Below, piece after piece: positions 31,287 to 52,378 of a stretch of 64,000 nucleotides of DNA (within the stretch, counting starts at the first letter, position 1; every line of letters begins with the position of its first letter). The notes beneath the pieces are model-generated. The model was not told the DNA's origin. It saw nothing but the letters and a program-made list of their open reading frames with translations, and did not search any database. Position numbers and translations under genes: made by a program. The stretch covers positions 128,023-192,022 of the forward strand of contig CAZZAM010000001.1 of assembly GCA_964652775.1 (NCBI GenBank), given 5' to 3'. Origin of the DNA: an uncultured candidatus Brocadiaceae bacterium (GTDB taxonomy: Bacteria; Planctomycetota; UBA11346).

Positions 31287-34200
31287 TTACGGCGATGTAA
31301 ACGCTTCGGTACGGCCCTGCGTCGTTGGACCCATCCTGGGATCGACAATCGGATTTCCGTGCCAACGGCTGAAAATAGAGTGAGCCCCGGTCATCGATCC
31401 ATCACCGGCCGGATCAACCGCGATAACCCGTTCAAGACTGGCCTCGGTCGCCAACTTGTCATTGCGACGATCCCAGAGTTCAGACCGGATGAACAGGCGC
31501 CACTTGTTGCACTGGCCGATATTCCAACGACCGGTTACCGAAAAATGTAGCTGCGGATCACCAACAGTGACAATGCCAGCGCCGGACACCGTTGTGGCAT
31601 CGACGATGCCGTCGCCATTGAGGTCAAGTGCCGGAGTGCCAAAGAGGCTCATACGAACGTCGTTCAAACGGTGCTCCAATTGACGCGACAGTGCCGCCCA
31701 GGTGGGCTTGTAATCAACATAGATCCCACTGGCGGCCGGATTTTCAATGGTTGGCCAGCCGAGGGACGTGTAGAGCTTGGTACCTGGATCGCGAACTCCC
31801 TTCACCGCGTAATTACGATATCCGTATTGACCAGGGTTACCGTCCTGGTTCAGAGCCATTCCACCACTCGACGTACAGCCTGCCGATCTGGTGGTACCAA
31901 TTTCAGTAGTGATGCCCGATAGCGCGTTCAACTGGTTCATCCGACCGAGTGGATACGGTGCCGAGTGGTCATTGGAGGGTGCCCCCAGATACACGGAATA
32001 ATCACTCGCGCTCATGGCTGTTGTACTCGCGTGGCTCGCTGCGTTGGTGTAGGCGATGGAAATACCCAAGTGGGCTAGGAACACCGTTTCCACGTCCTCA
32101 ATCTTGTCGTAACCCGTACTCAGTCCGGAAACTAATTTTCCATACTTGCGGTCAGACAAACAATCAACCAGGGTTTTCCAGAGCGCTGCAGTAATATCGT
32201 TCTGATATGACAACCGCTCATCCACCGTGTCGTTATTGTTACTCAGCAACGAATCACCCCCATTATCTGGCCGATTGCGGAAATAGTGGGTCTGGGAGTT
32301 ACTGTTCTGATAAAATTGACCAAAGACAAACACGTGGAACATATCTTCACCCGACCCTTGGCCAACGAATGGTGCCAATGGCGTGGTGTATTGCGTGGTC
32401 GCAGGAGCCGTAACGCTTGAATTCATCGCACGCTGGCACGAGGCAATGCCACCACCGTTAGCGTTTTGTAAATATGGAAAGCGAGCATAGCCAAACACCT
32501 CTGCAGGGGTAGCGACCACCTTAACGGCATGGCCAGGTGGGCTGGTGACGTACGCTACATAGGCAGTCGAATCGACACCGTTCAAGGTGAACACGCTGGT
32601 GCTGACCACCGTGACCGTATAGGGGCCACCATTCACCATAGTCATCCCCAGAACATCAGAAATATTTACCTGGTCCCCAGTAACCAATCCGTGAGATGCC
32701 GCTGTTACTGCGCACGGATTCGCCCTAGTAATTGCCGTAATATCCCGTCGCACTTCATCCACGGCGACCAATTCATCACGCACGGGATTCTTCCACACCA
32801 ATGGAGCATCGCCGGCGAAGGCATCGTTGCGGAAATAATACGTGCCCACCTCGGTACCATTCGCTGGCGGTCGCTTGTAGGTCGTGGTCAACACCACTGT
32901 ATTGCCTGCGCCGAGTGGAGGCAGCGCGCCGCCCTCAATGCCATCAGCGCCAGTTTTGGCCATACCGTCATCCCACACCGCAGCGAAAGCATCGCCCATC
33001 GTCGGACAGGCCTTGCGCGGGGGTATGGGTAACAAGTTACGCTGGTTCATCGAATAATTGAGGTGCGCCGAGCCGCTGCGCGACCGCGTGATGTAGTTAT
33101 CGATCTGACTATACCAATCCCCGGTCATGCCCGCGACCATGGCGACGCCCATTTCACGGGGCATCAATAGCATATTGACGTACCAGGGACAATCGATGTC
33201 CGCCAAACTGCCGTCGCCTTGGTTTCGTTTGGGCGACTTGGTTCGATCCAGATCAACTCCAAATGGGGTCGTACTGAAACAGCAGAGATCGACTGCGCGC
33301 GTTTGCGTACTGAGACTTTGCGTCAGGTCCGTAGATACCGAGCTCGACTCAAACCCCAATTTGGTGTGATACTGTGCCCAGCTCGCATTGGGTCCGGGTT
33401 GGAATTTCATCGGCGATGCCGGCGCTGACCACGGACTGCCGGGATCGGACGCCATGTCGTAGTTATAGAAATTACCTAACCAGCCCTGTCCCACAGCGAT
33501 ATTCATCATGCGGGTCAGCACGCCAGGAACGGCACTGCCCTTGTTGAGGCTCATGCTTACGCCATTGATCACAACCGTGGTTTTCACGTACGTTGGCGTG
33601 GCCCCCGACCAAGCATAAAATGCCGTGTTACCCTCTTGTCCGACGGGACCAGTGTACACCAAGCTACTGTTCTTTTTCACCCGGCCGGTTGATGAACCAT
33701 CGGTGACGCCCATGGCTCCGAACATGTTGCCGAGGGCCGTCGCATACTGCTGGGCCAGTGGGAAACTCGCACCGACCCAATCGGTATCGACTGGATCAAC
33801 CATGAAGGTCTGCTCGGCATTTGCCTGACTCAGACTGATCGTGGCGTTCGATCCTACAGCATACGACAAGGCCGCCGTTTTTCCCGAACCGAAGTAGGCC
33901 GCATCGCTCAGAAAAGCGACTGTTCCAGAGGCGATGGCAGCGGTTTCACCAGCACTGGGGGACGCAAACACTTCACCTGCGCCAGAGGGAACAATCTGAT
34001 TGCGTAGTCCATAGCGGAAGCGACCGCCGGTGGTCTTGGATAAAATATCCGGTCTGAAGTTGATGCTCATGTTCCCATCGAGGGGCAGCGCCATCACGGA
34101 AATCCGCGCCTCGTAGGCTGCTGATGCACGACTGGTCACCGGTAGGGGAATGAAGTTCTGATCATAATAAGCCATGGTGAACCATTTGGGCCAAGTCGCC

Positions 34201-35099
34201 GCGTTGGCGTTGTTGTACACCAGGCCGCGGAATCCATCGTAACTGTTCTGTGATTGCCAACTGGCGTTATCGCTGCCATTTTGGAACCAACCGGTGTTCA
34301 AACTGTTGCGCCACGGAGCGTACTGCATCGGCACCGCCAAAGTCCGCGCATCCATGCTGTCAACGATCGTCGGCCGCGTCGGATCACTCCAGGGAGTTGG
34401 GCTGCCCGCTCCTACGGCAATGAGGTTCCACCGCGTACTCGCCGGCGGGACCGTGGCGGTTGGACCGTTGGCAGCGTTACAGAGATAGTATGCCCCCGAG
34501 TAGAAAACATACTGGCCAGCGCTGTAACTAAGACTCGCCGACCACACCCTTGATGGGCCATACTGGTTGGCTGGCCATTGGCTGCTGGTCGTGCCCAGCG
34601 CATTGATGTCGGTGGTGCCGTCGGTCGCGCCAACCCGGCCTTCAAAGAAAAACTTCCAATTGAGACCCGTCCGCGCGGCAGGCACGACGGGGATCGGCCC
34701 ACCGTAATTATACATGACCTGACGCTCGGTTTGATTGGGAATATACACGTCCGGATAGCGCTGGGGTAGCTGCGCGGTGAACGCCGCTTGGTAGTCACTC
34801 ATCAGGATCTGCTGCGCGTACATCGCTCCAGCAATGGCTGTTTGCGCCGCAATTTGTCCAGCCGTTTGACGGGTTCCGCTCTCGCGCTGACTAGCCATCA
34901 AACCGACGAAGGTACCAGCCAACATCACGATCGTCCCCAGAATGAGCAGGACCATGAGTGCTACTGACCCGCGACGCGCAGTGTCGCCTGGGGGTGTGCA
35001 TGGCTGACGGAAACGCACGAACTGCAACGACACAGTCCGGACTTCTACATTCGCGATGGACAGACGCTGCTTGCTCTGAACTTGATAGCACATGATCAC
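31287..35099 (-). CDS. Giant GspK/PilX-like minor pseudopilin (1270 aa)
   Basis: The N-terminus 'ARRGSVALMVLLILGTIVMLAGTFVGL' is GspK-type, with no Glu at +5. The start (GTG 35099 or ATG 35093) abuts or overlaps the stop of the upstream pseudopilin gene. Confidence 0.7.
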   Translation of the reverse strand: MIMCYQVQSKQRLSIANVEVRTVSLQFVRFRQPCTPPGDTARRGSVALMVLLILGTIVMLAGTFVGLMASQRESGTRQTAGQIAAQTAIAGAMYAQQILMSDYQAAFTAQLPQRYPDVYIPNQTERQVMYNYGGPIPVVPAARTGLNWKFFFEGRVGATDGTTDINALGTTSSQWPANQYGPSRVWSASLSYSAGQYVFYSGAYYLCNAANGPTATVPPASTRWNLIAVGAGSPTPWSDPTRPTIVDSMDARTLAVPMQYAPWRNSLNTGWFQNGSDNASWQSQNSYDGFRGLVYNNANAATWPKWFTMAYYDQNFIPLPVTSRASAAYEARISVMALPLDGNMSINFRPDILSKTTGGRFRYGLRNQIVPSGAGEVFASPSAGETAAIASGTVAFLSDAAYFGSGKTAALSYAVGSNATISLSQANAEQTFMVDPVDTDWVGASFPLAQQYATALGNMFGAMGVTDGSSTGRVKKNSSLVYTGPVGQEGNTAFYAWSGATPTYVKTTVVINGVSMSLNKGSAVPGVLTRMMNIAVGQGWLGNFYNYDMASDPGSPWSAPASPMKFQPGPNASWAQYHTKLGFESSSVSTDLTQSLSTQTRAVDLCCFSTTPFGVDLDRTKSPKRNQGDGSLADIDCPWYVNMLLMPREMGVAMVAGMTGDWYSQIDNYITRSRSGSAHLNYSMNQRNLLPIPPRKACPTMGDAFAAVWDDGMAKTGADGIEGGALPPLGAGNTVVLTTTYKRPPANGTEVGTYYFRNDAFAGDAPLVWKNPVRDELVAVDEVRRDITAITRANPCAVTAASHGLVTGDQVNISDVLGMTMVNGGPYTVTVVSTSVFTLNGVDSTAYVAYVTSPPGHAVKVVATPAEVFGYARFPYLQNANGGGIASCQRAMNSSVTAPATTQYTTPLAPFVGQGSGEDMFHVFVFGQFYQNSNSQTHYFRNRPDNGGDSLLSNNNDTVDERLSYQNDITAALWKTLVDCLSDRKYGKLVSGLSTGYDKIEDVETVFLAHLGISIAYTNAASHASTTAMSASDYSVYLGAPSNDHSAPYPLGRMNQLNALSGITTEIGTTRSAGCTSSGGMALNQDGNPGQYGYRNYAVKGVRDPGTKLYTSLGWPTIENPAASGIYVDYKPTWAALSRQLEHRLNDVRMSLFGTPALDLNGDGIVDATTVSGAGIVTVGDPQLHFSVTGRWNIGQCNKWRLFIRSELWDRRNDKLATEASLERVIAVDPAGDGSMTGAHSIFSRWHGNPIVDPRMGPTTQGRTEAFTSP

Positions 35100-36109
35100 G
35101 GCGCCTTGGTGGTAAAGGTAAATGCCTGACGCAGACCGGTGGCCCGGTCCACCAGGGTCAAGGCAATCTGCAACTGCCGGGGACGCAGCAGATTCGACGC
35201 GGTGTCCGTCGTGGTATAACCCTCACCATCGATGCTCGTATTGTATCCGCCCCCAGCATCGGCCACGGTCACTCCCGCACGGGTGAGCATGCTGATCGAA
35301 CAGTCTTCGACGTTATCGACGAGAACCCGCGTTTGATCTGGAATGGGAACCGCATCCCAAATGCTGGTCAATGCGGTGTTAGACAACGATAAGTTGAGTT
35401 GATCTGCTGCGATCATCGAGTTAGGAACCTGGTTGCTGATGGGATTGGTGGTCCGCTCAGCGGTCATGCCCAAATAATTACGGGTTGTTCCATCGGCATC
35501 GACGCCGGTCAGAAACAGCATATCGTAGATCTTCACTTGTCTCGCCACGGCGGGGGTGGCGGACAGTGGATCGTAGAAGCTCATTATGCCATTGAGGAAT
35601 TCGCTATAGGTACGGACCGCACTGGGGCGCGCTCCGATAACCGGCCGGAACATCATACCAATGTCATTGATGGTGAACATGCGCAGATTCGGATACCAGA
35701 CATAGCCATACGCCGGGGGTGACGCCGCCCGGGTCAGGCTCCGCGAAGCGGCCTTCCACTCCCAGCGCACCCAACCGAAATCCACGTCCTTAGGAAAATT
35801 GTAAGAGGCCTGTTCCCAAAATTCGCGCGCTGAACGCATACCAGTGAACTGGACTATCGACTTAACGCCACCGCTGTAGGTGGTGGTCCCATTGCAGGCG
35901 ACATGCTGCAAGAGACAGGCCATGTCGCGTTCCCATTGCTCGGCGATGTCCCCGGCTTGGCGATGCAAACGAACGGTGGCTTCAGCGCGTTGGATCAGGC
36001 GCTTGCTGTGTTGATACGCCGCCATGGCCAATCCCATGACGGCCATACCCAAGGCCATGGCCACCATCATTTCGATCAGCGTGAAACCACGACGTGACAT
36101 CACCGTCAT
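35096..36109 (-). CDS. GspJ-like pseudopilin (about 337 aa)
   Basis: ORF 35096..36310, but residues 1-67 are a read-through of the repeat element. The start is probably Met68 or Met71 (36109/36100), giving MTVMSRRG|FTLIEMMVAMALGMAVMGLAMAAY, a prepilin cleavage/methylation motif. Confidence 0.75.
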   Translation of the reverse strand: MTVMSRRGFTLIEMMVAMALGMAVMGLAMAAYQHSKRLIQRAEATVRLHRQAGDIAEQWERDMACLLQHVACNGTTTYSGGVKSIVQFTGMRSAREFWEQASYNFPKDVDFGWVRWEWKAASRSLTRAASPPAYGYVWYPNLRMFTINDIGMMFRPVIGARPSAVRTYSEFLNGIMSFYDPLSATPAVARQVKIYDMLFLTGVDADGTTRNYLGMTAERTTNPISNQVPNSMIAADQLNLSLSNTALTSIWDAVPIPDQTRVLVDNVEDCSISMLTRAGVTVADAGGGYNTSIDGEGYTTTDTASNLLRPRQLQIALTLVDRATGLRQAFTFTTKAP

Positions 36110-36139
36110 GGATGCGGACGTTGCGACACGCCTGCTAGA

Positions 36140-36296
36140 TCCGGCGATGAGATCACATGGAGGAACGGAGGAACGGAGCAGGCATGGGCTTGGAGAATCA
36201 ACGGCATTCACCCAACATGTGATTGCTTTCTTCGCCGCGCATACCGTGCGACTCCGGTCCTCCGGTTCTCCATGTCGATCAGATGCTGCGTTTGGG
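36140..36296 (+). repeat. Hairpin repeat element, copy 3 (inside the pseudopilin operon)
   Basis: It aligns with the copies at 15227 and 29909. It occupies the 197-nt gap between the I-like and J-like pseudopilin genes, in the orientation opposite to transcription. Confidence 0.85.
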
Positions 36297-36306
36297 ATCA
36301 TGGAAC

Positions 36307-36753
36307 TCATCGGCTCACCACGCTGACGAGGCCAGCCAGTTTCTGCCCGCTTTCACCCCAGAACACATTCACTTGGACCAGATCGACACTGTGGCTCATC
36401 GCCTGGAGGATAGTCCGCTCGACATAGTAACCGTTGAGGAAACCGGTAACCGGCGAATCCGCCATGGTCTTCGCTGCATCAACGAGCGCGGGGTCAACCA
36501 GGGCCGTACGCGCGGTTGATTCGGCGGTGGCCATGCCAACGGCAATGTGCGACTCGCGCGTTCCGATGGTCGTCAGGGCCAGGACCGACAGCAAACCCAT
36601 GGACAGCAAGAGGAGCGCGATGATGACATCGATCAGGGTGAAGGCCCGACGAATAGGCGAACCACGACGAGCAATAGTCCGGACTTCCGGACTTCCGGAC
36701 TTCCGAACGACTTCGCCTCGGTTCACAGCACGATGCGTGTGATTGGTGCTCAT
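36307..36753 (-). CDS. GspI-like pseudopilin (148 aa)
   Basis: 'RRA|FTLIDVIIALLLLSMGLLSVLAL' prepilin-type N-terminus. The ATG at 36753 overlaps the upstream stop (ATGA). The size is typical of GspI. Confidence 0.75.
   Translation of the reverse strand: MSTNHTHRAVNRGEVVRKSGSPEVRTIARRGSPIRRAFTLIDVIIALLLLSMGLLSVLALTTIGTRESHIAVGMATAESTARTALVDPALVDAAKTMADSPVTGFLNGYYVERTILQAMSHSVDLVQVNVFWGESGQKLAGLVSVVSR
36678..36707. repeat. Tandem octamer array TCCGGAct x3 plus a degenerate unit
   Basis: TCCGGA occurs at 36678, 36686 and 36694, and TCCGAA at 36702. The array lies inside the 5' coding leader of the I-like pseudopilin. Confidence 0.9.
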
Positions 36754-38330
36754 GGCTTGGGCTTGATCCAGGGGTACGGGTCGTGTTGCTGCAGCATTTC
36801 GGGCTCAAGGGCACCAGTAACGCGGATCTTGTTCGCATCCCCATCAGTAACGGCGCAATACACCCAGCCATTGCCCCAGATCCGATCGGCGGTGGGAACA
36901 TTGACCTCGATGGCGTCAAGCCAGGCCTGAATACTCGCAAATGGTCGAATGCTGCGGACTGCCCCGGTTGGTTCGCTGACCACGATCCGGCGCATCGGCA
37001 GTAGCGACTTCAATGCGATGCTTGGGCTGGTAAAACTCGTGAGGTCGTCTGGTGCATCCTTGGCGACGGTGACCGATGGACCGCCAATCGCATCGCCCGC
37101 GAAGTAGATGATGCCATCGTCACGGCCGTGAAAGACATAGTTACTCGTCACAGCACCGTATTGCGGCTGGGCAATTTTCTTGGGCGCTGCGAGACCCGTG
37201 GCATCCATCCACGCCCAGGCCGAGTACAACGCCGCACGATTATAAAACGTCAGGGCCCGAGCCTGACCGTCACCAAGGAAGACGATGGCGAAATCCATCC
37301 AGTACCCATTGAGGACCGGACGCGGCGTACCGATTTGCGTCGCGTCACAACAGGGCCGCATCTCCTCTTGCGCACTGTTCCGCGCCGGAGTTTGCGCCGC
37401 GTTGCTGGGGGTGTACCAGCAGTCGCACAAGGCCGCATTGGTGCTGTTGGTCACCGGGATCGCTGTTTGCGCGTCATTCCATCTAAAAACACCTGGGCGA
37501 CCAGGGTTACCAGTTTGGAAAGCGTCGTGATTGGCGCCGCGATAGGTGCATTCGTAATCCAACCCCGAACCATAGATGGTGGTGTCGTAGCCAGCAAAGG
37601 CGCGCATCGTGTAGGCTGAACCCGAACCGGTGAGGTAGCCAAACCAGGGGCGGGGATAGGTGGTGCTGAGCGCCGCGATGCCGGTGCGGGTTGGCGTATC
37701 CTGGGACCACGCCGTAGCAGCAATGCCATACTGGGCGCGATCAACCGGAATCTGCGCCACCGCCGGGGTGTGGAGATTGTCCTCGACATCGCCCAGCGCC
37801 AAGAACCGCGTCCCCCTTGGCAAATAGAATGGTTCGCCGATTTGCGCGCGTTGGACGGTTGCAGCAAAGCGCTGAGCTGATCCGCGTGAACCCATCTTGG
37901 TGGACTCGGGAGCGCCGCTCATGCGTGGCAACAGGTCGTAGCCTTTCTCTGGTCCGATGATGGCGCACCAGTGCCGGCCAGGAAAGACTTTTGGATCCGA
38001 CTCATCCCAGTTGCGGAGGATGGCTCCCGAACCTTTGTTCTCGAGGTGAAACACCACGCAGTGGGGCTTGCCCGACGTGATGGCCAGATTGCGCGCCTTG
38101 AGCAGCATGCGTTCCACCCCATTCGCGGCCTGCTCAACCTGGATCTCAGCCTGGCCTTTGCTCAGCATCCCGCTCGACATCGTGATCCCTGCGAGGATTG
38201 AGATAATCCCGATGACGACCAGCAGTTCGATCAGCGTAAACGCACGGGTAATACGGCTCATCCTGAACGCAGCAGTCCGGAAGTCCGGAAGTCCGGAAGT
38301 CCGGACTGCGTCAATGAGGTTAATGATCAT
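36750..38330 (-). CDS. GspH/FimT-like pseudopilin (526 aa)
   Basis: 'ITRA|FTLIELLVVIGIISILAGI' is followed by 'AANGVERMLLKARNLAITSGKPHCVVF' (GspH-like). The start is either the ATG at 38330 (3 nt after the upstream stop) or the internal ATG at 38261. Confidence 0.75.
   Translation of the reverse strand: MIINLIDAVRTSGLPDFRTAAFRMSRITRAFTLIELLVVIGIISILAGITMSSGMLSKGQAEIQVEQAANGVERMLLKARNLAITSGKPHCVVFHLENKGSGAILRNWDESDPKVFPGRHWCAIIGPEKGYDLLPRMSGAPESTKMGSRGSAQRFAATVQRAQIGEPFYLPRGTRFLALGDVEDNLHTPAVAQIPVDRAQYGIAATAWSQDTPTRTGIAALSTTYPRPWFGYLTGSGSAYTMRAFAGYDTTIYGSGLDYECTYRGANHDAFQTGNPGRPGVFRWNDAQTAIPVTNSTNAALCDCWYTPSNAAQTPARNSAQEEMRPCCDATQIGTPRPVLNGYWMDFAIVFLGDGQARALTFYNRAALYSAWAWMDATGLAAPKKIAQPQYGAVTSNYVFHGRDDGIIYFAGDAIGGPSVTVAKDAPDDLTSFTSPSIALKSLLPMRRIVVSEPTGAVRSIRPFASIQAWLDAIEVNVPTADRIWGNGWVYCAVTDGDANKIRVTGALEPEMLQQHDPYPWIKPKP
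38276..38305. repeat. Tandem octamer array TCCGGAag x4
   Basis: TCCGGA occurs at 38276, 38284, 38292 and 38300. On the coding strand it is followed by CTGCTGCGTTCAGGATG, where the ATG is the internal start at 38261. Confidence 0.9.
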
Positions 38331-38333
38331 GAC

Positions 38334-40211
38334 TCAGTGTTTCCGCGTGACTTGAGGGCGTAGATTATCTGTGTTGGCCGCGTTCGTACGTACGGCATGA
38401 AACAAGCTGTCGCGGCCCGCGCTTAACAGTTCGAAATCCCGTTCTTCACCCATGGGCGCACACAAACGGATATCGTAAGCCGCGACGTTGGTATCATACG
38501 CGCCGTTACGCACGCGATCATAGTAGAGTTCACTGCCCCCCTGTTCACCATCGCCATTGTCATCCTTCCACGGTTCGACCAGTTTACTTCCGTCTTTGGA
38601 CACACAGTAGTACACCACGCCGCCGCGCTTGTGGGTTGGTACCGACTGAACCGCAACCCGACTGGGAATGGCGGTGCCGAATATCGGATAGGGATCGCCG
38701 CATTCCTCCATGTCGATGCCGTGCAATGCCCACACATGCGGACCACCGATCATGGGCGAAGGAGGTGACGTTGCCGAGGGGCAGTGGTAGTCGATGAGGG
38801 ATATATCCATGGCATCGGCCCGCACAGGCACTCCACGATCATTCACCCGATCAGTGACATAGCAGTAGCCGGGCGTGTAGAGCGGCGGAGCGTGATAACC
38901 GGTAATCATACCCGAGGTGTCGCCGGCCAGCGGAATGAGACTCGTCAAATCCGAACTCGGATCTGGGTGATAAAGTAACATGCAGCCCTTGCCATACATG
39001 CTCTGTCCGCGCTGATTGGGACTAGTGCCTGAGATAAACGCATTGCCGTTGAGCTGGGCAAGACGGCAATTGATCGTCTTCTTCGCCGGCAGACCTTCGT
39101 TGATATAGACCAGCGGCTGTCCGTAAGCATCCAGGATATCCACCTTCGTGTCGCCATCGAGATCCGACTTCAGGTAATTGTCCAACTGACCGCCAAGGTA
39201 GTCATCATGCCAGGGATCGCTCAAGGTCGCAACGTTGATCGTCTTGGAAGCACTAGTCTCACCCAACGAAACGCCTGATGCATCCGTACCGCTGTCGTAG
39301 GTGTAATTGCCGGCGGCAACACCATGACGCAAACCACGCAGATACGCATCTGCCGCATCGCGCGGCCGAGCATAACTGACATAAATGGGGAAGAGCTGGT
39401 TGATCCAACTCGCAAAGTAACCGAGGCCACCAGCAACGTGATAATCGCCGCTATATGGCGTCGGCTGCCGGGACATCAACATCGGGGCCACGCGGAAGTG
39501 ATCGAAAATCCTTTTCACTTCGCGTTCGCCCAGTGACACCGGTCCGGTGGCATCATAGTGCGCCCAGTCCTTTGCGGGCGCCGCGGTCACCGTCTGGGTC
39601 ATATTGGCCGCGTTAAACAGCGGTGGCAAATCCAGCCCAGCACACACCACATTCCCGTAGCTGCCGATGTGGTAGAAGCGATCGAGTTCGATGGTGCGCA
39701 TGGAATTCGCATTATTGAGCGCCAAGGTTTTGTCAGCTGCGACCATCGGGGTTCCCAAACTATAAAACAGGCCATTGCCAATCGCCCAGGTCGTCGGCGT
39801 ACTTGCCGGCGCCCACACCGTGTCGTTGTCCGGCGTCGGCAGTCCGGTTGCTGCGGCAACCTTGACCAGCCCATCATCAAAGCCGCCGCTTTCCGTCTGT
39901 ACTGGTGGCGCGGAATAAAAGCCCCTGGGATAGAAACCCATTTCGCTCCGGAACGTACGCAGGGCGGTATCAACCTTGTCCAACACCAATTGAGTCTGGG
40001 ATCGCTTGGCCGACTGGCGCACGCTCATCAGCCCGCCGTAGGTCATGGACGACAAAATCGCGATGATGCTGATGACCACCAACATCTCGATCAGCGAAAA
40101 CCCCCTCCGCCCAGACCCAGGACATGACGGCACACTTCCGAACCGGGAAACAAGCTCACATGAAGAAACGTATGGCATGGTACTGTGAATTGTGTCCATC
40201 CAGGCCATCAC
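38334..40211 (-). CDS. GspG-like pseudopilin with large insertions (625 aa)
   Basis: 'GRRG|FSLIEMLVVISIIAILSSM' is followed by 'AKRSQTQLVLDKVDTALRTFRSEMGFYP'. The later 'DGDTKVDILDAYGQPLVY' and C-terminal 'DFELLSAGRDS' mirror the GspG landmarks (DPWG.PY.Y / F.L.S.G.DG). Confidence 0.75.
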   Translation of the reverse strand: MMAWMDTIHSTMPYVSSCELVSRFGSVPSCPGSGRRGFSLIEMLVVISIIAILSSMTYGGLMSVRQSAKRSQTQLVLDKVDTALRTFRSEMGFYPRGFYSAPPVQTESGGFDDGLVKVAAATGLPTPDNDTVWAPASTPTTWAIGNGLFYSLGTPMVAADKTLALNNANSMRTIELDRFYHIGSYGNVVCAGLDLPPLFNAANMTQTVTAAPAKDWAHYDATGPVSLGEREVKRIFDHFRVAPMLMSRQPTPYSGDYHVAGGLGYFASWINQLFPIYVSYARPRDAADAYLRGLRHGVAAGNYTYDSGTDASGVSLGETSASKTINVATLSDPWHDDYLGGQLDNYLKSDLDGDTKVDILDAYGQPLVYINEGLPAKKTINCRLAQLNGNAFISGTSPNQRGQSMYGKGCMLLYHPDPSSDLTSLIPLAGDTSGMITGYHAPPLYTPGYCYVTDRVNDRGVPVRADAMDISLIDYHCPSATSPPSPMIGGPHVWALHGIDMEECGDPYPIFGTAIPSRVAVQSVPTHKRGGVVYYCVSKDGSKLVEPWKDDNGDGEQGGSELYYDRVRNGAYDTNVAAYDIRLCAPMGEERDFELLSAGRDSLFHAVRTNAANTDNLRPQVTRKH

Positions 40212-40297
40212 TAACAGAGGCCAGACAGATTGACCGCCCTGCGTATGACACGCGCTCGAGACCTATCTGAGCATTGAACCTTTAAGGAGCGCTTGAT

Positions 40298-40553: not shown

Positions 40554-41894
40554 ATGCGCCCCCTGTTCCTGATATTCCTCGCCTCAATCACGATGGCTGC
40601 TCAAGCCCCAGCCAAACAACCCTCGGTCGAGGAGGGCGTCATCCTCGACCTGTGCAATCAATACCGCACCGATCAGCAGCGGATCCGTTTTCGTCTGGAA
40701 GACATGGTCCGACGCAATGAGCTCCCGACCGACAAAGCAACCAAGGACGCTTGGCTACTCGCCAATACCGGCCATCGGCAAGCCTTAGCACCGGTAGTTA
40801 TGAATCCGCTCCTCAATGCGGCTGCGCGGAATCTACTGATCTCCAAAGTCCTTCCCGAGCGACTCAAGGCCATTGACGCCATCGCTCCCCTCAAGGCGGT
40901 CAACTACACCCCGGACAGCAGTGGCCTGGTGGTGATTGGACGCGATGCCAGTTCAGCATCGGTAGCCTTCTTGACCGCCCTCATGGCAGTCACCAGTGAA
41001 AAGGAGATTCGCCCAGGATACGTCATGCCGAGCTTCACCGCCGCCCAGGTATTCCAACCCCAATGGCGGGAAGTTGGCATCGCGGTCATTGTGGAGGGAG
41101 CCAAGTTTCACACCGCCATGGTCTTCGGTTTGGGATCGGCCCAACGCTATGTCGGCGGAGTCGTTTTCGCCGACGCCAACCACAATGGTCGCTTCGATGC
41201 GGGTGAAGGCCGTCCGGGTATTGAGGTCAAGTCCGGCGGCATCGGGATGACCACCGGACCTGCAGGCGCGTGGTGGATGTTCTTGGACAATGGCGATCCC
41301 GTCACAGTGGAATTCAACGGCGAAGGATTCACGGCCAACCGTCCGGTGGTACGCGGCACGGCGAACCTCTGTATTGATTGGCGCATGCCGCTGGCAGCGG
41401 ACAATAAATCCGCCGACAAATTGATGGCGGACGTGAAACGGGCCGTCGGCCCGGATCCGCAACGGAAAGCCTTAGCCGCGCTGATCGCCGGAACCCGGGT
41501 CGCCATTCTTGATGAGGCACACCAGACCAAAGTGACCGCGCTTGTGGCTGGCATGATGGGCGAATACACGACGGCGGTCAAACGCTGCATGGATGCGCTC
41601 ACCGACACCCATCAGAATTTTCTCGCACGTTTCGACCGTATTAAAGCGACCTGCCGCGGGTCCTTCGTCGCTATGTTCAAGGAAATCGAGGACATTCATC
41701 GCTTGGGGCAACTGGTCGCCGCCTTCCAAGCAGCGCCCCCTGATCAGCAGACCAAGCAAGGGCCTGATTTACTCAGGGACATCACGAAAGCCCGCGAGGC
41801 CTCCGGCGAACCGCTGCTGGATCAGCAGTATGTTTTCATGCTCGAAGGCGTCGCTTCCGTCCTCAACACGTTGGAACCGGTGGCAAAACCTTAA
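40554..41894 (+). CDS. Secreted protein with a CAP/SCP-like N-domain (tentative)
   Basis: 446-aa ORF with the signal peptide MRPLFLIFLASITMAAQA. 'LCNQYR...LNAAARNLL...GIAVIVEGAKFHTAMVFG' resembles a CAP domain. 'DANHNGRFDAGEGRPGIEV' resembles an SdrD-B/CarboxypepD_reg-like segment. The C-terminus is helical. Confidence 0.55.
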   Translation: MRPLFLIFLASITMAAQAPAKQPSVEEGVILDLCNQYRTDQQRIRFRLEDMVRRNELPTDKATKDAWLLANTGHRQALAPVVMNPLLNAAARNLLISKVLPERLKAIDAIAPLKAVNYTPDSSGLVVIGRDASSASVAFLTALMAVTSEKEIRPGYVMPSFTAAQVFQPQWREVGIAVIVEGAKFHTAMVFGLGSAQRYVGGVVFADANHNGRFDAGEGRPGIEVKSGGIGMTTGPAGAWWMFLDNGDPVTVEFNGEGFTANRPVVRGTANLCIDWRMPLAADNKSADKLMADVKRAVGPDPQRKALAALIAGTRVAILDEAHQTKVTALVAGMMGEYTTAVKRCMDALTDTHQNFLARFDRIKATCRGSFVAMFKEIEDIHRLGQLVAAFQAAPPDQQTKQGPDLLRDITKAREASGEPLLDQQYVFMLEGVASVLNTLEPVAKP

Positions 41895-41908: not shown

Positions 41909-42625
41909 CTAGGGACGATAGATCCACGTACACGGGTCGGTCGCACTCCCCTTTTTGCCCCACGAATAGACATACGGATACGGTCGCGCTTTGGTGATGT
42001 CGCGACCGTTGCGCGCTTTCTCGTAATTGTTGGTCGCATCCCAATTCCAATCCGGCAAGGTCAGGTCAACGCTCGAGCCGTGCGTACAAGCGAAGGCGCT
42101 GCGCGTCGCCAACGGTAAGCTGAAGCGGTAGCGATAGGGATGCTTCCAGGGATCGAGCAACCGACGATCCGTATCACCAGGATCGTGGTGCGGAACGGGC
42201 AGCGGAAGACCTGCAGTGTCCAGCAAGGTAATAACGCCATCGATTACCGTGCCTGCCCGATTGTCGTGCCGACATAACGAGAAGGCTAATTCAGGATCAG
42301 TGGCCTCGTCGTAATGATGATAGGTGATTGAAGCAGGGACGGCTGGCAACGCAGGGCCGTAGGGATTCAATATCCCCAATGGCCCCGGGAACGGATAGCG
42401 TTTCTGGTCATCGTTTGATGCGTATTGTTCAATCGAACTTACCAACTGCGCCACGGCTTGTTTCGCCTCTGCCACCCGCGCATTTTCCCGCACCAAGCTA
42501 ATTGCTGGAATAAGCATACCAGCCAACACGGCAATGATCGAGATCACGATCAGCAATTCCACCAGGGTGAACCCCCAATGAGATCGCTGCGTCGGCAGGT
42601 AAGTACAACAATGGTGGCGGCTCAT
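41909..42625 (-). CDS. Orphan GspG-like pseudopilin
   Basis: ORF 41909..42790. The likely start is the ATG at 42625, which gives MSRHHCCTYLPTQRSHWG|FTLVELLIVISIIAVLAGML. 'LLDPWKHPYRY' and 'VYSWGKKGS' are GspG-like landmarks. Confidence 0.7.
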   Translation of the reverse strand: MSRHHCCTYLPTQRSHWGFTLVELLIVISIIAVLAGMLIPAISLVRENARVAEAKQAVAQLVSSIEQYASNDDQKRYPFPGPLGILNPYGPALPAVPASITYHHYDEATDPELAFSLCRHDNRAGTVIDGVITLLDTAGLPLPVPHHDPGDTDRRLLDPWKHPYRYRFSLPLATRSAFACTHGSSVDLTLPDWNWDATNNYEKARNGRDITKARPYPYVYSWGKKGSATDPCTWIYRP

Positions 42626-42717: not shown

Positions 42718-43662
42718 TCACCCTCCCCCGGTCCTGCGGAATATCCGACTGCTGAATACCGGGCCAAGCGTATGATGCAGCGGGATCCAACCAAGCTGCT
42801 GTATGGGGACATCCAAGCGTTGACCGGCCGGTAATCTGCGTGGCTCACCGCCAACCGGATGAACTTCCACACTGCCCCGACTCACCGCGATCGCCGTTCC
42901 CGCCGCTACGACCTGGATCCGCACGGCAGCATCCTGCACGGCAATGGAAGCGGCCTTGGTTTGCACAGCGAGGGGCACGTCTGTTGGCGACACTTCGCTG
43001 ATCAGTTCACCACGTACCAAGGAAAAGCTGCGTCGGAGACCTTCAACTTCTTCGACAACCGCTTCGGTATTTGCCGCCAACTCGCAGGTACCACCACGCA
43101 GCGATATCTTCACGTGGCTATCGGGTTCGATGTGCAGGCGATCTCCAACCCGCAGACTTGTGCCGGCCTTCAGGGCTATTGTCATTCCGTCACGCACGAT
43201 GAATGCGCTTCCTTCGGTTTGGGCGATGATCGGGACCAGGTATTGCGCGCGCAGCGCCATGGCACCCAGAGCCAATGTAATGATGCCCGTGACAATCAGA
43301 ATTGATGCGGCCGCAGCCCAACCAGCCCAGCGGCGGGTGACGTTGGTCCGTGCTGAGGGACGCGGCGGCGATGATGACGGACCAGGTGCCAACAGCCGCG
43401 CGCTATCAACCGATCCGGCAGCGGCATGGCGACCAATTTCAGCAAGATGCCCGTGCATGCGTGCCAGGACGGTAAATCGTGCGCGATAGGATGGATCGGA
43501 TTGCAGGAGCGCGTTGAGCTGGGCGACTGCGGCAGCGTCGGCATCGCCAGCGAGGTACTGCGTGGCGAGATCAGCGAATACATCGGCGGACTCGTCGAGG
43601 ATGAGAGGAGCACCTTCATTGCCACGGGCCACGCTGGAGCGTGGCGTTCCCAGGGGAGTCAT
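42718..43662 (-). CDS. FecR-family anti-sigma factor
   Basis: The ATG at 43662 overlaps the sigma-factor stop (ATGA). The N-terminus is 'LATQYLAGDADAAAVAQLNALLQSDPSYRARF'. There is one TM (WAGWAAAASILIVTGIITLALGAMAL) and a C-terminal FecR-like beta domain. Confidence 0.75.
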   Translation of the reverse strand: MTPLGTPRSSVARGNEGAPLILDESADVFADLATQYLAGDADAAAVAQLNALLQSDPSYRARFTVLARMHGHLAEIGRHAAAGSVDSARLLAPGPSSSPPRPSARTNVTRRWAGWAAAASILIVTGIITLALGAMALRAQYLVPIIAQTEGSAFIVRDGMTIALKAGTSLRVGDRLHIEPDSHVKISLRGGTCELAANTEAVVEEVEGLRRSFSLVRGELISEVSPTDVPLAVQTKAASIAVQDAAVRIQVVAAGTAIAVSRGSVEVHPVGGEPRRLPAGQRLDVPIQQLGWIPLHHTLGPVFSSRIFRRTGGG

Positions 43663-44192
43663 GGCGAGCCACGCTGGAGCATGGGGTTCCCAGGAACGCC
43701 CCCCTGCATGCATTGGGCGAGCGCTTTGTACACGCGGCTATAGGCGACCTGCACGGCACCTAGTGTCTTGCCGACGCGCAAGGCGATGGATGCGCCGTCC
43801 AGATTATCGGCAAAGCGCAAACGGATCAGCGACCGCGCAAATGGACTCAGACGATCCAGACAGCGTTCAAGCTGTTCGATATCCTCACGGCCGGACTCAG
43901 GATTATGCTGCGACCATTCCGACTCCAGCATCGCCAAGGTCGTATCATCAAGGCAACGATCGCGGCGGTGACTGCGTCGGGCTTCGTTCAGCGCGAGGTT
44001 GCGCGCTGTCGTGCGAACCCATGCCATGGCGTGTCCCGGGTGATCAAACTTATCACAAGCATCATTGGCGCGGATGAGCGTTTCCTGAAACACGTCCTCG
44101 CCCGCCGTGCGATCGGGCAACACGACAGCGATCCAACCGAGGATGGCACCACGGCGGTCGAGCAACAAATGAAGCAGTTCGTCGCGCTGCAC
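43659..44192 (-). CDS. ECF-type RNA polymerase sigma-70 family factor
   Basis: 177 aa. Region 2 is 'EDVFQETLIRANDACDKFD...AWVRTTARNLALNEARR'. Region 4 is 'LSPFARSLIRLRFADNLDGASIALRVGKTLGAVQVAYSRVYKAL'. Confidence 0.85.
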   Translation of the reverse strand: MQRDELLHLLLDRRGAILGWIAVVLPDRTAGEDVFQETLIRANDACDKFDHPGHAMAWVRTTARNLALNEARRSHRRDRCLDDTTLAMLESEWSQHNPESGREDIEQLERCLDRLSPFARSLIRLRFADNLDGASIALRVGKTLGAVQVAYSRVYKALAQCMQGGVPGNPMLQRGSP

Positions 44193-52368: not shown

Positions 52369-52378
52369 GGGGATTGGT

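What the first reader, a model, noticed from the sequence alone, without database searches (positions are those of the whole stretch)
31287..40211. Operon of five hyper-expanded GspG/H/I/J/K-like pseudopilins with no assembly machinery in cis
Seen in the sequence: five co-directional minus-strand ORFs with almost no spacing. There is a 3-nt gap at 38331-38333, an ATGA overlap at 36750-36753 and a GTGA overlap at 35096-35099. Each opens with a class-III (prepilin) signal: RRG|FSLIEML (625 aa), TRA|FTLIELL (526 aa), RRA|FTLIDVI (148 aa), RRG|FTLIEMM (~337 aa), and RRG|SVALMVLL lacking Glu+5 (1270 aa).

Established knowledge: the canonical T2SS order is G-H-I-J-K, GspK characteristically lacks Glu+5, and usual sizes are roughly 150/170/125/200/330 aa. 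The first ORF keeps GspG landmarks ('AKRSQTQLVLDKVDTALRTFRSEMGFYP', 'LDAYGQPLVY', C-terminal 'DFELLSAGRDS') split by insertions of several hundred aa. The second has a GspH/FimT-like 'AANGVERMLLKARNLAITSGKPHCVVF'.

Inference: this is a complete major-plus-minor pseudopilin set whose globular parts are inflated 2-4 fold. That would be a fibre built to display large binding or enzymatic modules, and it is embedded between glycan-utilisation loci. I am not aware of a characterised pseudopilus or pilus with subunits of this size.
Basis: partly seen in the sequence, partly recalled or inferred. Interest (0 to 1): 0.85.

Follow-up and report, generated by a model that had tools for sequence, protein, structure and literature searches.

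The report
Giant orphan pseudopilin gene cassette
A groundwater Planctomycetota genome carries a conserved set of six pilus-subunit-like genes, four of them two to four times the normal size, sitting among sugar-degrading genes with no pilus-building machinery nearby; it is a rare, uncharacterised variant of a known kind of system and its fold and function remain unproven.

Summary
Five tightly packed minus-strand ORFs at 31287-40211 each open with a prepilin-type signal, and the last lacks Glu+5.

The set is larger than reported. A sixth, smaller GspG-like gene (g, 41909-42625) belongs to it. It lies directly upstream of the cassette in relatives and is the likelier polymerising subunit. The I-like protein is not enlarged.

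The g-G-H-I-J-K order and sizes recur in at least seven other loci. One genome has two cassettes in tandem. Wherever flanks exist they hold glycan-degradation genes and regulators, and never T2SS or T4P machinery.

The family is very rare, with about five K-like clusters among 1.84 billion representative proteins.

Similarity to GspG/H/I/J/K is sub-threshold and confined to the N-terminal helix. The exception is g, whose globular part matches GspG (hhalign E 1e-5). Both AlphaFold runs failed (pLDDT 27 and 32), so the "inflated pseudopilin fold" is untested.

The window's K subunit alone has gained an E1_FCCH beta-barrel and a CBM5/12-like motif.

Best reading: an orphan type IV filament subunit set that builds a roughly 300 kDa tip complex tied to glycan use. 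It is a new variant of a known kind, of moderate interest.

The parts
41909..42625 (-). g: small GspG-like pseudopilin and candidate polymerising (major) subunit. About 220 aa and 24.5 kDa mature. The ORF is open to 42790; Met56 at 42625 is the likely start. The class-III signal WG|FTLVELL lies at 42509-42574.
   Evidence: - 55-57% identical to the N_methyl gene directly upstream of giant G in L001 and L002.
- GspG is its best NCBIfam hit, sub-threshold. Pfam T2SSG is sub-threshold at the DPWxxxYxY motif in window g and L002 g, and at the N-terminal helix in L001 g.
- hhalign against 8 reference GspG sequences gives E 8e-18. With alpha1 removed it gives Prob 83%, E 1e-5, against 0.46 for a reversed control.
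40554..41894 (+). Intervening 446-aa ORF with a Sec-like N-terminus. It separates g from G in the window only. Function unknown.
   Evidence: No Pfam or NCBIfam hit. Absent between g and G in L001, L002 and L009, where the two genes abut.
38334..40211 (-). G: giant GspG-like subunit, 588 aa and 63.7 kDa mature. Signal RRG|FSLIEML at 40041-40103. PGAP calls the start at Met12 (40178).
   Evidence: - N_methyl 32.5 bits. GspG TIGR01710 38 bits against a cut-off of 88.85, covering profile positions 1-61 only.
- Orthologues P0004 and P0005 are 42-43% identical over 93-94% of the length.
- Weak colinear hhalign hits of DAYGQPLVY and DFELLSAGRD to GspG motifs.
- AF2 pLDDT 27.
36750..38330 (-). H: GspH/FimU-position subunit, 496 aa and 53.8 kDa mature. 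Signal TRA|FTLIELL at 38160-38243.
   Evidence: - N_methyl 24.7 bits. Best NCBIfam hits are ComGD and GspH, N-terminal only. The L009 orthologue scores GspH 48 bits against a cut-off of 80.
- 49-52% identical to the L001 and L002 orthologues.
- PDB profile search hits the helix only.
36307..36753 (-). I: small GspI/PilV-position subunit, 111 aa and 11.7 kDa mature, so not enlarged. Signal RRA|FTLIDVI (Asp at +5) at 36559-36645. The leader is at least 28 aa, because the only start codons are codons 1 and 10.
   Evidence: PilV TIGR02523 scores 30 bits sub-threshold, and XpsI 13 bits (E 0.066) for the window I; GspI (18 bits) appears only for the L009 orthologue. 48-53% identical to the L001/L002 orthologues; alignment identities to all five orthologues 32-61%. 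Start-codon inventory.
35096..36310 (-). J: GspJ/PilW-position subunit, 329 aa and 36.3 kDa mature. Signal RRG|FTLIEMM at 36017-36088. The start is either 36310 (ATGA overlap with the I stop) or Met68 at 36109.
   Evidence: N_methyl 30.5 bits. No subfamily-specific hit (GspJ 17 bits against 64.85). 44-48% identical to orthologues.
31287..35099 (-). K: giant GspK-position cap subunit, about 1226 aa and 131 kDa mature. N-terminus RRG|SVALMVLL without Glu+5.
   Evidence: - Colinear with orthologues of 933-1183 aa.
- Three homologues hit the N-terminus of the GspK model NF037980 at E 0.002-0.016.
- hhalign is best against GspK (E 0.004 against 0.07 or worse for G/H/I/J).
- No PDB hit.
- AF2 of homologue P0021 gives pLDDT 32.
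34380..34622 (-). Window-specific insertion 1 in K (about residues 160-240) with a CBM5/12-like motif (residues 186-211, 34467-34544).
   Evidence: Gap in the L001 and L002 orthologues. Pfam CBM_5_12 E 0.007-0.008, 16.6-16.9 bits, below the cut-off of 26.2.
32460..32747 (-). Window-specific insertion 2 in K (about residues 785-880) holding an E1_FCCH-type small beta-barrel (residues 800-851, 32547-32702).
   Evidence: - Pfam E1_FCCH 32-36 bits, above the cut-off of 29.5. It also resembles the phage endosialidase beta-barrel weakly (E 0.002).
- Absent from P0021-P0024 and P0136 and from L001/L002.
- The domain recurs in a P22-like phage structural gene and accounts for nearly all of the 150 listed hits (2392 in total).
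42718..43713 (-). FecR-like anti-sigma gene immediately upstream of g and co-directional with it. A candidate regulator.
   Evidence: Pfam FecR E 9e-9. In L009 a zf-HC2 anti-sigma-like gene and a STAS gene sit at the same position. L001 and the 15-kb contig have LacI-family genes.
44393..47329 (+). Divergent ECF-type sigma factor fused to a C-terminal extension of about 800 aa. A candidate regulator.
   Evidence: Sigma70_r2 and r4 at residues 27-175.
38268..38307 (.). (GTCCGGAA)n palindromic repeat inside the H leader region. Related copies lie at 36676-36715 (I leader) and 35020-35045 (K leader).
   Evidence: 10 matches in the window against 0.11 expected. Other copies lie at the intergenic sites 696 and 60503.

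Best explanation
This is an orphan, lineage-restricted set of six type IV filament subunit genes of the T2SS type: g, G, H, I, J and K.

**Proposed steps (inferred).**
1. Each product enters the inner membrane through its N-terminal hydrophobic helix.
2. A prepilin peptidase encoded elsewhere trims it after the Gly or Ala at -1.
3. I, J and K nucleate a tip or priming complex. K, which lacks Glu+5, forms the cap.
4. H and the giant G join beneath it.
5. The small GspG-like g polymerises below them.
6. A GspE/F-type or PilB/C-type motor located outside this locus drives assembly.

**Size and variation.** The globular parts of G, H, J and K are about 4.3, 3.1, 1.8 and 3.9 times the length of their E. 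coli counterparts, and have no recognisable fold. The resulting head would weigh about 300 kDa. Its variable insertions act as binding modules. In this genome those are a CBM5/12-like motif and a beta-barrel of the kind found in phage tail proteins.

**Likely job.** The cassette always lies among carbohydrate-active enzymes, sulfatase-related genes and sugar-responsive regulators. The most probable role is therefore polysaccharide capture or retrieval at the cell surface or in the enlarged periplasm, or docking of the neighbouring enzymes.

**Shown versus inferred.**
- Shown: the signals, the gene order, its conservation, the GspG-like globular domain of g, the domain insertions and the genomic context.
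- Inferred: processing, polymerisation, tip location and glycan binding.
For: **Signals and order**
- There are five class-III signals plus a K-type N-terminus without Glu+5.
- Stop/start overlaps (ATGA, ATGA, GTGA) and a 3-nt gap indicate one translationally coupled operon.

**Conservation**
- Each protein has a colinear orthologue at 37-57% identity.
- Gene orders in relatives:
  - L001: g-G-H-I-J-K.
  - L009 (GCA_016745075.1): g-G-H-I-J-K.
  - L002 and the 15-kb contig: g-I-G-H-J-K.
  - L020: G-H-I-J-K directly followed by a second cassette.
  - L007, L008, L010 and a JGI contig: H-I-J-K or J-K.

**Subfamily signal, sub-threshold**
- Best NCBIfam hits follow gene position. g and G hit GspG. 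H hits GspH in L009 (48 bits); the window H scores ComGD (29 bits) above GspH (24 bits). I hits PilV and GspI. K homologues hit GspK.
- The hhalign matrix agrees for g, G, I and K.
- The globular part of g matches the GspG globular part at Prob 83%, E 1e-5. DPWKHPYRY aligns on DPWGNDYVL. The reversed control gives 0.46.
- The size ranking (I smallest, K largest) matches the GspI-J-K tip complex (PMC7248040).

**Binding modules**
- K has variable insertion hot spots.
- In the window, E1_FCCH scores above its cut-off and a CBM5/12-like motif is sub-threshold. Both are absent from orthologues.

**Context**
- Window: GH88, two GH9, a GH42-like protein, four esterases, beta-helix proteins, aldose epimerase, and LacI, AraC and ECF-sigma/FecR regulators.
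- L001: alginate-lyase/heparinase-II/III protein with a weak CBM6 hit, SASA, sulfatase, LacI.
- L020: polysaccharide lyase and a GH78-like rhamnosidase.
- L009: FGE-sulfatase.

**Precedents**
- Large tip-located subunits are known: modular pilins, CofB, and PilY1 presented by minor pilins (PMC8179133, PMC7541494).
- Planctomycetal fibres and type IV pili have been implicated in polysaccharide binding (as summarised in PMC11131199).
Against: - No curated family cut-off is reached by any of the six proteins except the generic N_methyl motif.
- All PDB-profile matches stop at the N-terminal helix, and I and K have none.
- Both structure predictions were unusable (pLDDT 27 and 32). A pilin fold in G, H, J and K is therefore not shown.
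- H and I have Ala at -1, and the window I has Asp at +5. Both are non-canonical for prepilin peptidase and for subunit docking.
- The leaders in the window are unusually long: at least 28 aa for I, and up to 72 aa for J.
- No peptidase, ATPase, platform or secretin gene was seen in any locus. Their presence in these genomes could not be checked.
- The CBM5/12 hit is below threshold, and no glycan binding has been demonstrated.
- The link to glycan use is by neighbourhood only. In CAZyme-rich Planctomycetota that carries less weight than it would elsewhere.
Confidence: 0.5

Rival explanations
1. This is a conventional secretion pseudopilus. The cassette supplies an alternative, substrate-specific set of pseudopilins for a periplasmic T2SS piston. 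That piston expels the neighbouring glycoside hydrolases, lyases and esterases, and the enlarged tip recognises the cargo rather than the glycan.
For: - The G-H-I-J-K order and GspG-type N-termini are those of T2SS rather than T4aP operons (L012 as reference).
- PGAP names G and H "type II secretion system protein".
- The neighbouring genes encode enzymes that must be exported.
- T2SS involvement in cellulose utilisation is documented in Cytophaga (PMC5553014, title and abstract only).
Against: - A tip of about 300 kDa is far larger than any known T2SS tip. It would have to work under, or pass through, a secretin.
- The CBM-like and tail-protein-like inserts in K suggest binding to glycan rather than to protein.
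- Two cassettes in tandem within one genome are unusual for T2SS.
- No Gsp core genes lie nearby in any locus.
Confidence: 0.25
2. These are not filament subunits. The prepilin-like N-terminus serves only as an inner-membrane anchor or export signal for large periplasmic or surface proteins. This has been suspected for the many prepilin-tagged paralogues of PVC bacteria. The proteins would act as a membrane-tethered glycan-binding or scaffolding complex without polymerising.
For: - Nothing beyond the N-terminal helix is recognisably pilin-like in G, H, I, J or K.
- Ala at -1 and long leaders are atypical.
- No assembly genes lie in cis.
- From my own knowledge: Planctomycetota encode very many orphan prepilin-motif proteins (DUF1559, HX9DG).
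Against: - The strictly conserved six-member order mirrors a priming complex. It has one small I-type, one Glu5-less K-type and one GspG-like member. That is hard to explain for independent anchored proteins.
- Glu+5 is kept in g, G, H and J in all orthologues. This residue matters for subunit-subunit contacts in filaments.
Confidence: 0.17
3. The feature is an artefact: assembly chimeras, fused or decayed genes, or over-extended ORF calls.
For: The longest ORF forms include N-terminal extensions that carry REP-like repeats. Gene callers disagree on starts. For G they give 564, 583 and 614 aa.
Against: - Full-length colinear orthologues exist in unrelated samples.
- The same sequence appears in independent assemblies of the same site.
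- Gene junctions are conserved.
- Only the start positions are uncertain, not the genes.
Confidence: 0.03

Closest known systems
T2SS pseudopilins GspG-H-I-J-K (for example the E. coli gsp/etp and Klebsiella pul systems; GspI-J-K tip complex, Korotkov & Hol 2008, as cited in PMC7248040)
   Same: - Class-III signals and the G-H-I-J-K gene order with coupled junctions.
- I is the smallest and K the largest, and K lacks Glu+5.
- The g globular domain is homologous to GspG, including the DPWGxxY motif.
   Different: - There are two G-type genes (g and a 64-kDa G).
- H, J and K are 1.8-3.9 times the normal size.
- No curated Gsp model reaches its cut-off.
- No gspC/D/E/F/L/M/O genes lie in cis.
- One genome carries two cassettes in tandem.
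- The cassette is embedded in carbohydrate-utilisation genes.
T4aP core minor pilins plus PilY1 (FimU-PilV-PilW-PilX-PilY1; priming and tip complex, PMC7541494, PMC7248040)
   Same: A four-member priming set homologous to H-I-J-K presents a protein of more than 100 kDa at the fibre tip. That is the functional picture proposed here. The best NCBIfam hit for I is PilV.
   Different: - Here the large tip component is itself a K-type subunit with an N-terminal helix, not a non-pilin beta-propeller.
- There is no PilY1/PilC family hit.
- The G-type major-subunit signature is GspG, not PilA.
- The gene order starts with G.
Modular pilins (PilB and PilC of Streptococcus sanguinis, CofB, TcpB, ComZ; survey in PMC8179133)
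   Same: An N-terminal pilin module carries bulky extra modules for binding and is expected at the tip. Lectin and CBM-type modules are common.
   Different: - Those are single enlarged subunits among normal ones, and the largest reported is 860 aa.
- Here four of six subunits are enlarged.
- The extra mass appears as insertions and extensions without recognised domains, apart from E1_FCCH in K.
- The largest reaches about 1226 aa.
Verru_Chthon cassette proteins A-D (NCBIfam TIGR02596, TIGR02598-TIGR02600; uncharacterised, Verrucomicrobiota)
   Same: As I recall it: a PVC-lineage multi-copy orphan cassette of prepilin-motif proteins plus one very large protein. Here H weakly hits D (24-32 bits), and J (13-23 bits) and one I orthologue (19 bits) hit C.
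   Different: All scores are far below the cut-offs (70 and 256.5). K has no hit to protein A. The composition differs (six genes, with GspG-like members). This is not the same family.

Membership tests
Type IV filament subunit (prepilin-type N-terminal cleavage/methylation, PF07963 / TIGR02532) | A short basic leader, Gly at -1, Phe at +1, Glu at +5, then a hydrophobic helix of about 20 residues, with the HMM above its cut-off | tested here: met
   - N_methyl scores 32.5 (G), 24.7 (H), 30.5 (J) and 21.7 (g) bits against a cut-off of 21.2. I scores 15.9, which is sub-threshold.
- TIGR02532 is above its cut-off of 16.3 for g, G, H and J.
- Deviations: Ala at -1 in H and I, Asp at +5 in I, long leaders, and K lacks the motif by design.
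GspG major pseudopilin (TIGR01710, PF08334) | Whole-protein HMM score at or above the curated cut-off | tested here: not met
   - Window g: 33 bits.
- Window G: 38 bits.
- L009 g: 49 bits.
- All are measured against a cut-off of 88.85 and match profile positions 1-63 only.
- PF08334: 13.8-18.3 bits against a cut-off of 21.
GspG major pseudopilin (TIGR01710, PF08334) | Globular domain homologous to GspG (beta-sheet with the DPWGxxY and SxGxDG motifs) | tested here: inconclusive
   - g: hhalign with alpha1 removed gives Prob 83%, E 1e-5 over 69 columns, against 0.46 for the reversed control. This counts as met.
- Giant G: only two weak colinear hits (E 0.004 and 0.005; Prob 7-9%).
GspH / FimU (TIGR01708) | HMM at or above its cut-off; GspH fold | tested here: not met
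   24 bits (window) to 48 bits (L009) against a cut-off of 80, covering profile positions 2-68 of 169 only. The fold was not testable.
GspI / PilV (TIGR01707, TIGR02523) | HMM at or above its cut-off; small subunit of about 100-125 aa | tested here: not met
   - PilV scores 21-30 bits against 52.2, and GspI scores 18 bits against 44.35.
- The size criterion is met (111 aa mature).
- The PDB profile search found nothing significant.
GspJ / PilW (TIGR01711) | HMM at or above its cut-off | tested here: not met
   17 bits against 64.85, N-terminal only. hhalign does not discriminate J from G, H or I.
GspK / PilX (NF037980, PF03934) | No Glu+5; largest subunit; last in the pseudopilin gene run | tested here: met
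   G|S(V/I/L)xL... without an acidic residue at +5 in the window and in seven homologues. Largest and last gene in every locus.
GspK / PilX (NF037980, PF03934) | HMM at or above its cut-off; pilin fold with an inserted alpha-domain | tested here: not met
   - The window K has no hit. Homologues score 15-18 bits against a cut-off of 130, at the N-terminus only.
- hhalign against E. coli GspK gives E 0.004 over 22 columns.
- AF2 pLDDT 32, so the fold is untestable.
Canonical T2SS locus | Pseudopilin genes linked to gspD/E/F/L/M and a prepilin peptidase | tested here: not met
   - None was found among all ORFs of 200 aa or more in the window.
- None was found within 10 kb in L001, L009 or L020.
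- Compare the reference locus L012.
- Presence elsewhere in the genome could not be tested.
Verru_Chthon cassette (TIGR02596, TIGR02599, TIGR02600) | HMMs at or above their cut-offs | tested here: not met
   D scores 13-32 bits against 70. C scores 12-23 bits against 256.5. A has no hit.
PilY1 / PilC tip adhesin | C-terminal beta-propeller domain (Neisseria_PilC) | tested here: not met
   No such Pfam hit in K or its homologues at E <= 0.1.
Modular pilin (sense of PMC8179133) | An N-terminal pilin signature plus at least one additional domain not specific to pilus biology | tested here: inconclusive
   G, H and J carry the signature plus 200-450 extra residues, but no recognised domain. K has E1_FCCH above its cut-off but no N_methyl signature.

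The most novel reading that the evidence does not exclude
In some Planctomycetota, individual glycan-utilisation loci carry their own interchangeable set of pseudopilins. These re-tool one shared type IV filament machine with a giant, substrate-specific tip. This would be a pilus-based counterpart of the SusC/D pairs of Bacteroidota PULs, used to catch and reel in particular polysaccharides or to dock the cognate enzymes. Three findings would be signatures of such a modular system:
- the tandem cassettes in one genome;
- the variable insertions in K;
- the sugar-responsive regulators next to each cassette.
Probability: 0.15. Interest if true: 0.85.

Novelty: new variant of a known kind. Interest (0 to 1): 0.55.

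Why it matters
**Open question.** How Planctomycetota take up whole polysaccharides is unresolved. Surface fibres have been implicated, but no genes have been assigned to them.

**What this offers.** A conserved pseudopilin cassette always sits among carbohydrate-active enzymes. Its cap subunit acquires CBM-like and phage-tail-like modules. That gives concrete candidate genes to test.

**Wider consequences if the products are filament subunits.**
- They would extend the known size range of type IV filament components. Four subunits of 36-131 kDa would sit in one tip.
- They would show that the priming complex, and not only single modular pilins, can be elaborated.
- They would also supply about 2,500 residues of sequence with no recognisable fold.

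Tried and rejected
**1. Structure route.**
- AlphaFold2 on G with a 3-sequence alignment gave pLDDT 27.
- AlphaFold2 on the K homologue P0021 with a 6-sequence alignment gave pLDDT 32.
- Both models are unusable, so fold search was not run, because its matches would be meaningless.

**2. PDB sequence and profile searches.** All six families matched only N-terminal helices or nothing.

**3. Homologue and locus searches.**
- Word-indexed homologue searches with K, and then with a K alignment, returned only the protein itself and a phage protein sharing E1_FCCH.
- Two scans of 185,579 species-representative genomes found no relatives.
- The first scan of JGI metagenomes also found none. A second scan with a broader K alignment found one partial locus.

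**4. Exhaustive search with K.** It was dominated by the E1_FCCH insert. Only about five genuine K-like clusters emerged.

**5. Reference T2SS operons from plasmids.** Only two or three canonical H/I/J/K references were obtained. The hhalign matrix therefore has low power for those families.

**6. Walking out of the window.** This reached only short ENA contigs. One showed narGHJI to the left and no pilus genes.

**7. Readings rejected.**
- Membership of the Verru_Chthon cassette: scores are far below the cut-offs.
- A PilY1-type K: no propeller domain.
- A phage origin for the locus: only the small E1_FCCH barrel is shared with phage L003.
- REP-like repeats as system-specific regulatory sites: copies also occur at unrelated intergenic sites.

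Full report
**1. What is in the sequence**

| ORF | Coordinates | Length (aa) |
|---|---|---|
| G | 38334-40211 | 625 |
| H | 36750-38330 | 526 |
| I | 36307-36753 | 148 |
| J | 35096-36310 | 404 (337 from Met68) |
| K | 31287-35099 | 1270 |

I read the junctions directly from the sequence:
- G/H is TGA-GTC-ATG.
- H/I is ATGA.
- I/J is ATGA.
- J/K is GTGA.

A six-frame scan finds exactly five class-III signal motifs in the 64-kb window. K begins RRG|SVALMVLL and has no acidic residue at +5.

Pfam N_methyl passes its cut-off for G, H, J and the extra gene. It is sub-threshold for I.

Mature sizes, and length ratios to the E. coli Gsp precursors read from L011:

| Subunit | Mature size (kDa) | E. 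coli precursor (aa) | Length ratio (mature aa / precursor aa) |
|---|---|---|---|
| g | 24.5 | 145 | 1.5 |
| G | 63.7 | 145 | 4.1 |
| H | 53.8 | 169 | 2.9 |
| I | 11.7 | 125 | 0.9 |
| J | 36.3 | 195 | 1.7 |
| K | 131 | 327 | 3.7 |

Four subunits are therefore greatly enlarged. I is of ordinary size.

**2. A sixth member**

The extra gene, called g here, opens WG|FTLVELL. It is 55-57% identical to the N_methyl gene that lies directly upstream of the giant G gene in two related loci.

In the window g is separated from G by a plus-strand 446-aa ORF of unknown function (40554-41894). That ORF is absent at this position in relatives.

g is the most GspG-like member:
- GspG is its best NCBIfam hit.
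- Pfam T2SSG gives sub-threshold hits in all three orthologues, at the DPWxxxYxY motif in two of them (window g and L002 g).
- hhalign against eight reference GspG sequences from plasmid-borne T2SS loci gives E 8e-18.
- With the N-terminal helix removed from both profiles, the globular parts still match at Prob 83%, E 1e-5. DPWKHPYRY aligns on DPWGNDYVL. A reversed-template control gives E 0.46.

g is thus the better candidate for the polymerising subunit.

**3. Conservation and rarity**

Each of the six proteins has a colinear orthologue at 37-57% identity in independent assemblies.

| Locus | Gene order |
|---|---|
| L001 | g-G-H-I-J-K |
| L009 (NCBI GCA_016745075.1; a distant version with G of 420 aa and K of 933 aa) | g-G-H-I-J-K |
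| L002 and a 15-kb contig | g-I-G-H-J-K |
| L020 | G-H-I-J-K, followed directly by that second cassette: eleven pseudopilin-like genes in a row |
| L007, L008, L010 | H-I-J-K |
| A JGI contig | J-K |

In the orthologues the leaders are short (MRHHA|F, MTASRA|F, MTQLRFQRQTA|F).

The family is very rare:
- An exhaustive HMMER search of 1.84 billion representative proteins with K found 2392 hits. Nearly all of the 150 listed hits match through one inserted domain.
- Only five full-length K-like clusters, plus fragments, are genuine.
- Each cluster holds one or two sequences.
- Two scans of 185,579 species-representative genomes found nothing.
- Two metagenome scans found one partial locus.

The window belongs to a 257-kb contig of a Planctomycetota MAG from Hainich groundwater well H51. 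PGAP labels G and H generically as "type II secretion system protein". The conservation, together with identical sequence in separate assemblies, excludes chimeras.

**4. How far the Gsp assignment can be tested**

- No curated Gsp, Pil or Com model reaches its cut-off.
- All matches cover only the N-terminal 60-70 residues.

| Subunit | Best sub-threshold hit | Score (bits) | Cut-off |
|---|---|---|---|
| g and G | GspG | 33-49 | 88.85 |
| H | GspH (the window H scores ComGD higher, 29 bits) | 24-48 | 80 |
| I | PilV and GspI | 21-30 and 18 | 52.2 and 44.35 |
| J | nothing specific | – | – |
| Three K homologues | N-terminus of GspK | 15-18 | 130 |

A small hhalign matrix against E. coli references agrees for g, G, I and K. 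It has low power. Profile searches of the PDB with all six families match only pilin helices or nothing.

The support is weak: E 0.004-0.005 and Prob 7-9%, against 0.45 for the control.

Both AlphaFold2 runs failed. G with three sequences gave pLDDT 27. The K homologue P0021 with six sequences gave pLDDT 32. I therefore ran no structure search.

The central claim, that these are pseudopilin folds inflated by insertions, is neither confirmed nor refuted. It rests on four things:
- the signals;
- gene order;
- the size ranking (I smallest, K largest, as in the GspI-J-K complex; PMC7248040);
- the Glu5-less K.

**5. Insertions in K**

Aligned with its orthologues, the window's K has two private insertions.
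- **Residues about 785-880.** These contain an E1_FCCH-type small beta-barrel at 32-36 bits, above the cut-off of 29.5. It also resembles the beta-barrel of phage endosialidase weakly. The same domain occurs in a structural gene of a P22-like phage contig. It is absent from all other K homologues.
- **Residues about 160-240.** These carry a CBM5/12-like W...Y..G..V.Y.G..Y...W pattern, but only at 16.6-16.9 bits, below the cut-off of 26.2.

Other homologues carry different insertions at similar places. This is the pattern expected of an exposed, ligand-facing component. That reading is an inference.

**6. Context**

No T2SS or T4P machinery family was found among the ORFs of 200 aa or more in the window. 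None lies within 10 kb of the cassette in L001, L009 or L020.

The neighbours are carbohydrate genes and regulators:
- **Window:** GH88, two GH9, a GH42-like protein, four esterases, beta-helix proteins, aldose epimerase, a sodium:solute symporter-family transporter, and LacI and AraC regulators. A FecR-like gene lies directly upstream of g, with a divergent ECF-sigma fusion.
- **L001:** LacI, an alginate-lyase/heparinase-II/III protein with a weak CBM6 hit, a SASA esterase and a sulfatase.
- **L020:** a polysaccharide lyase and a GH78-like rhamnosidase.
- **L009:** an anti-sigma-like gene, a STAS gene and an FGE-sulfatase gene.

Planctomycetota cluster many CAZymes, and about a third of cluster genes are unassigned. 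Fibres and type IV pili have been linked to polysaccharide binding in cultured species (PMC11131199).

**7. Interpretation**

**Best reading (confidence 0.5).** This is an orphan T2SS-type set of type IV filament subunits.
- Its products are processed and assembled by machinery encoded elsewhere.
- I, J and K, with H and G, form a tip or priming complex of about 300 kDa.
- That complex sits on a short polymer of g.
- Its variable modules bind polysaccharide or dock the neighbouring enzymes.

**Rivals.**
- A conventional secretion piston for the adjacent enzymes (0.25).
- Non-polymerising proteins that use the prepilin-like helix only as an anchor (0.17).
- An artefact (0.03).

**Points against the best reading.**
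- There is no fold evidence.
- H and I have Ala at -1.
- The window I has Asp at +5.
- The leaders are long.
- I could not check whether a peptidase and motor exist in the genome.

**8. Comparison and novelty**

The closest systems are:
- GspGHIJK;
- the T4aP minor-pilin/PilY1 priming complex (PMC7541494);
- modular pilins, with the largest reported at 860 aa (PMC8179133);
- the uncharacterised Verru_Chthon cassettes of Verrucomicrobiota (recalled from NCBIfam descriptions).

The cassette works most like the first two. It fails every family-specific HMM test and cannot be filed as a member of any of them. I rate it a new variant of a known kind:
- the principle (prepilin-type subunits, tip complex, grafted modules) is known;
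- the scale (four enlarged subunits, a 131-kDa K-type cap), the second G-type gene, the tandem duplication and the consistent embedding in glycan loci are not described.

Interest is moderate (0.55). The cassette is specific and testable, and it bears on planctomycetal polysaccharide uptake. It still lacks structural or expression evidence.

**9. An unexplained detail**

In the window, the regions between each upstream stop codon and the H, I, J and K signals contain copies of two repeat families:
- (GTCCGGAA)n;
- TCACACGGAGGAACGGAGG.

Both also occur at unrelated intergenic sites. Yet all four reading frames stay open back to a start codon coupled to the preceding stop. For I, the only possible start codons (codons 1 and 10) lie upstream of the repeat. 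At least in I, the repeat must therefore be translated as part of a leader of 28 aa or more. Orthologues have leaders of 2-16 aa. Whether such leaders are tolerated because they are cleaved off is untested.

Noticed in passing
window 38268-38307, 36676-36715, 35020-35045; also 696-710 and 60503-60517: - Tandem octamer (GTCCGGAA)n, which contains the 10-nt palindrome AGTCCGGACT and can form hairpins.
- It gives 10 matches in the window against 0.11 expected.
- Three copies lie inside the predicted leader-coding regions of H, I and K.
- In I, no start codon lies downstream of the repeat, so it appears to be translated.
   Followed up: partly
window 40297-40324 / 40399-40426 (inverted pair), 36150-36171, 15240-15258, 29922-29940: - A second repeat family, TCACACGGAGGAACGGAGG, gives 5 matches against 0.03 expected.
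- An inverted pair, 28 nt long and 93% complementary, lies in the G upstream region.
- One copy lies in the long form of the J leader.
- Two copies lie at unrelated intergenic sites.
- It looks like a REP-like element. A regulatory role was not tested.
   Followed up: partly
window 44393-47329 (+) and 58272-60434 (-): Two ECF-type sigma factors are fused to long C-terminal extensions of unknown function (978 and 720 aa; the sigma domains occupy only the first 175 residues or so). The first lies divergent from a FecR-like gene (42718-43713) that directly precedes the pseudopilin gene g.
   Followed up: no
L003 10001-12916 (Logan SRR29078252): The E1_FCCH barrel of the window's K is shared with a 971-aa protein in the structural module of a P22-like phage contig (portal, coat and Phage_stabilise genes nearby). 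The same domain accounts for nearly all of the 150 listed hits (2392 in total) in the exhaustive search. It behaves as a mobile module of tail-type proteins.
   Followed up: partly
L020 5532-13186 plus the 15-kb contig of ERR3697022: One genome carries two paralogous cassettes back to back. The first is G-H-I-J-K and the second is g-I-G-H-J-K. In the second cassette the I gene has moved ahead of G.
   Followed up: partly
window 40554-41894 (+): A 446-aa ORF with a signal-peptide-like N-terminus and no family hit is inserted between g and G. It converges on g and is absent from that position in all relatives.
   Followed up: partly
window 50107-52551 (-): An 814-aa fusion of a fatty-acid desaturase domain with Rieske [2Fe-2S] and NAD-binding oxidoreductase domains. 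This looks like a self-sufficient desaturase or oxygenase architecture.
   Followed up: no
window 53973-56781 (+): Three consecutive "putative esterase" (PF00756) genes in tandem, with a fourth at 29088-29867. This may be a deacetylation or feruloyl-esterase battery for the local glycan substrates.
   Followed up: no
L005 6263-13473 (ENA ERZ1292634, left of the window): A respiratory nitrate reductase cluster (NarG, NarH and NarI families, with an unassigned 175-aa gene between NarH and NarI), preceded by an Rrf2/cytochrome c fusion, lies just beyond the window's left edge.
   Followed up: no
window 30059-31156 (-): A 365-aa gene directly downstream of K has a central transmembrane segment, a Pro/Thr/Ala/Ser-rich linker and a weak concanavalin-A-like C-terminal hit (GH43_C2, E 0.018). 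It is not conserved downstream of K in relatives.
   Followed up: no
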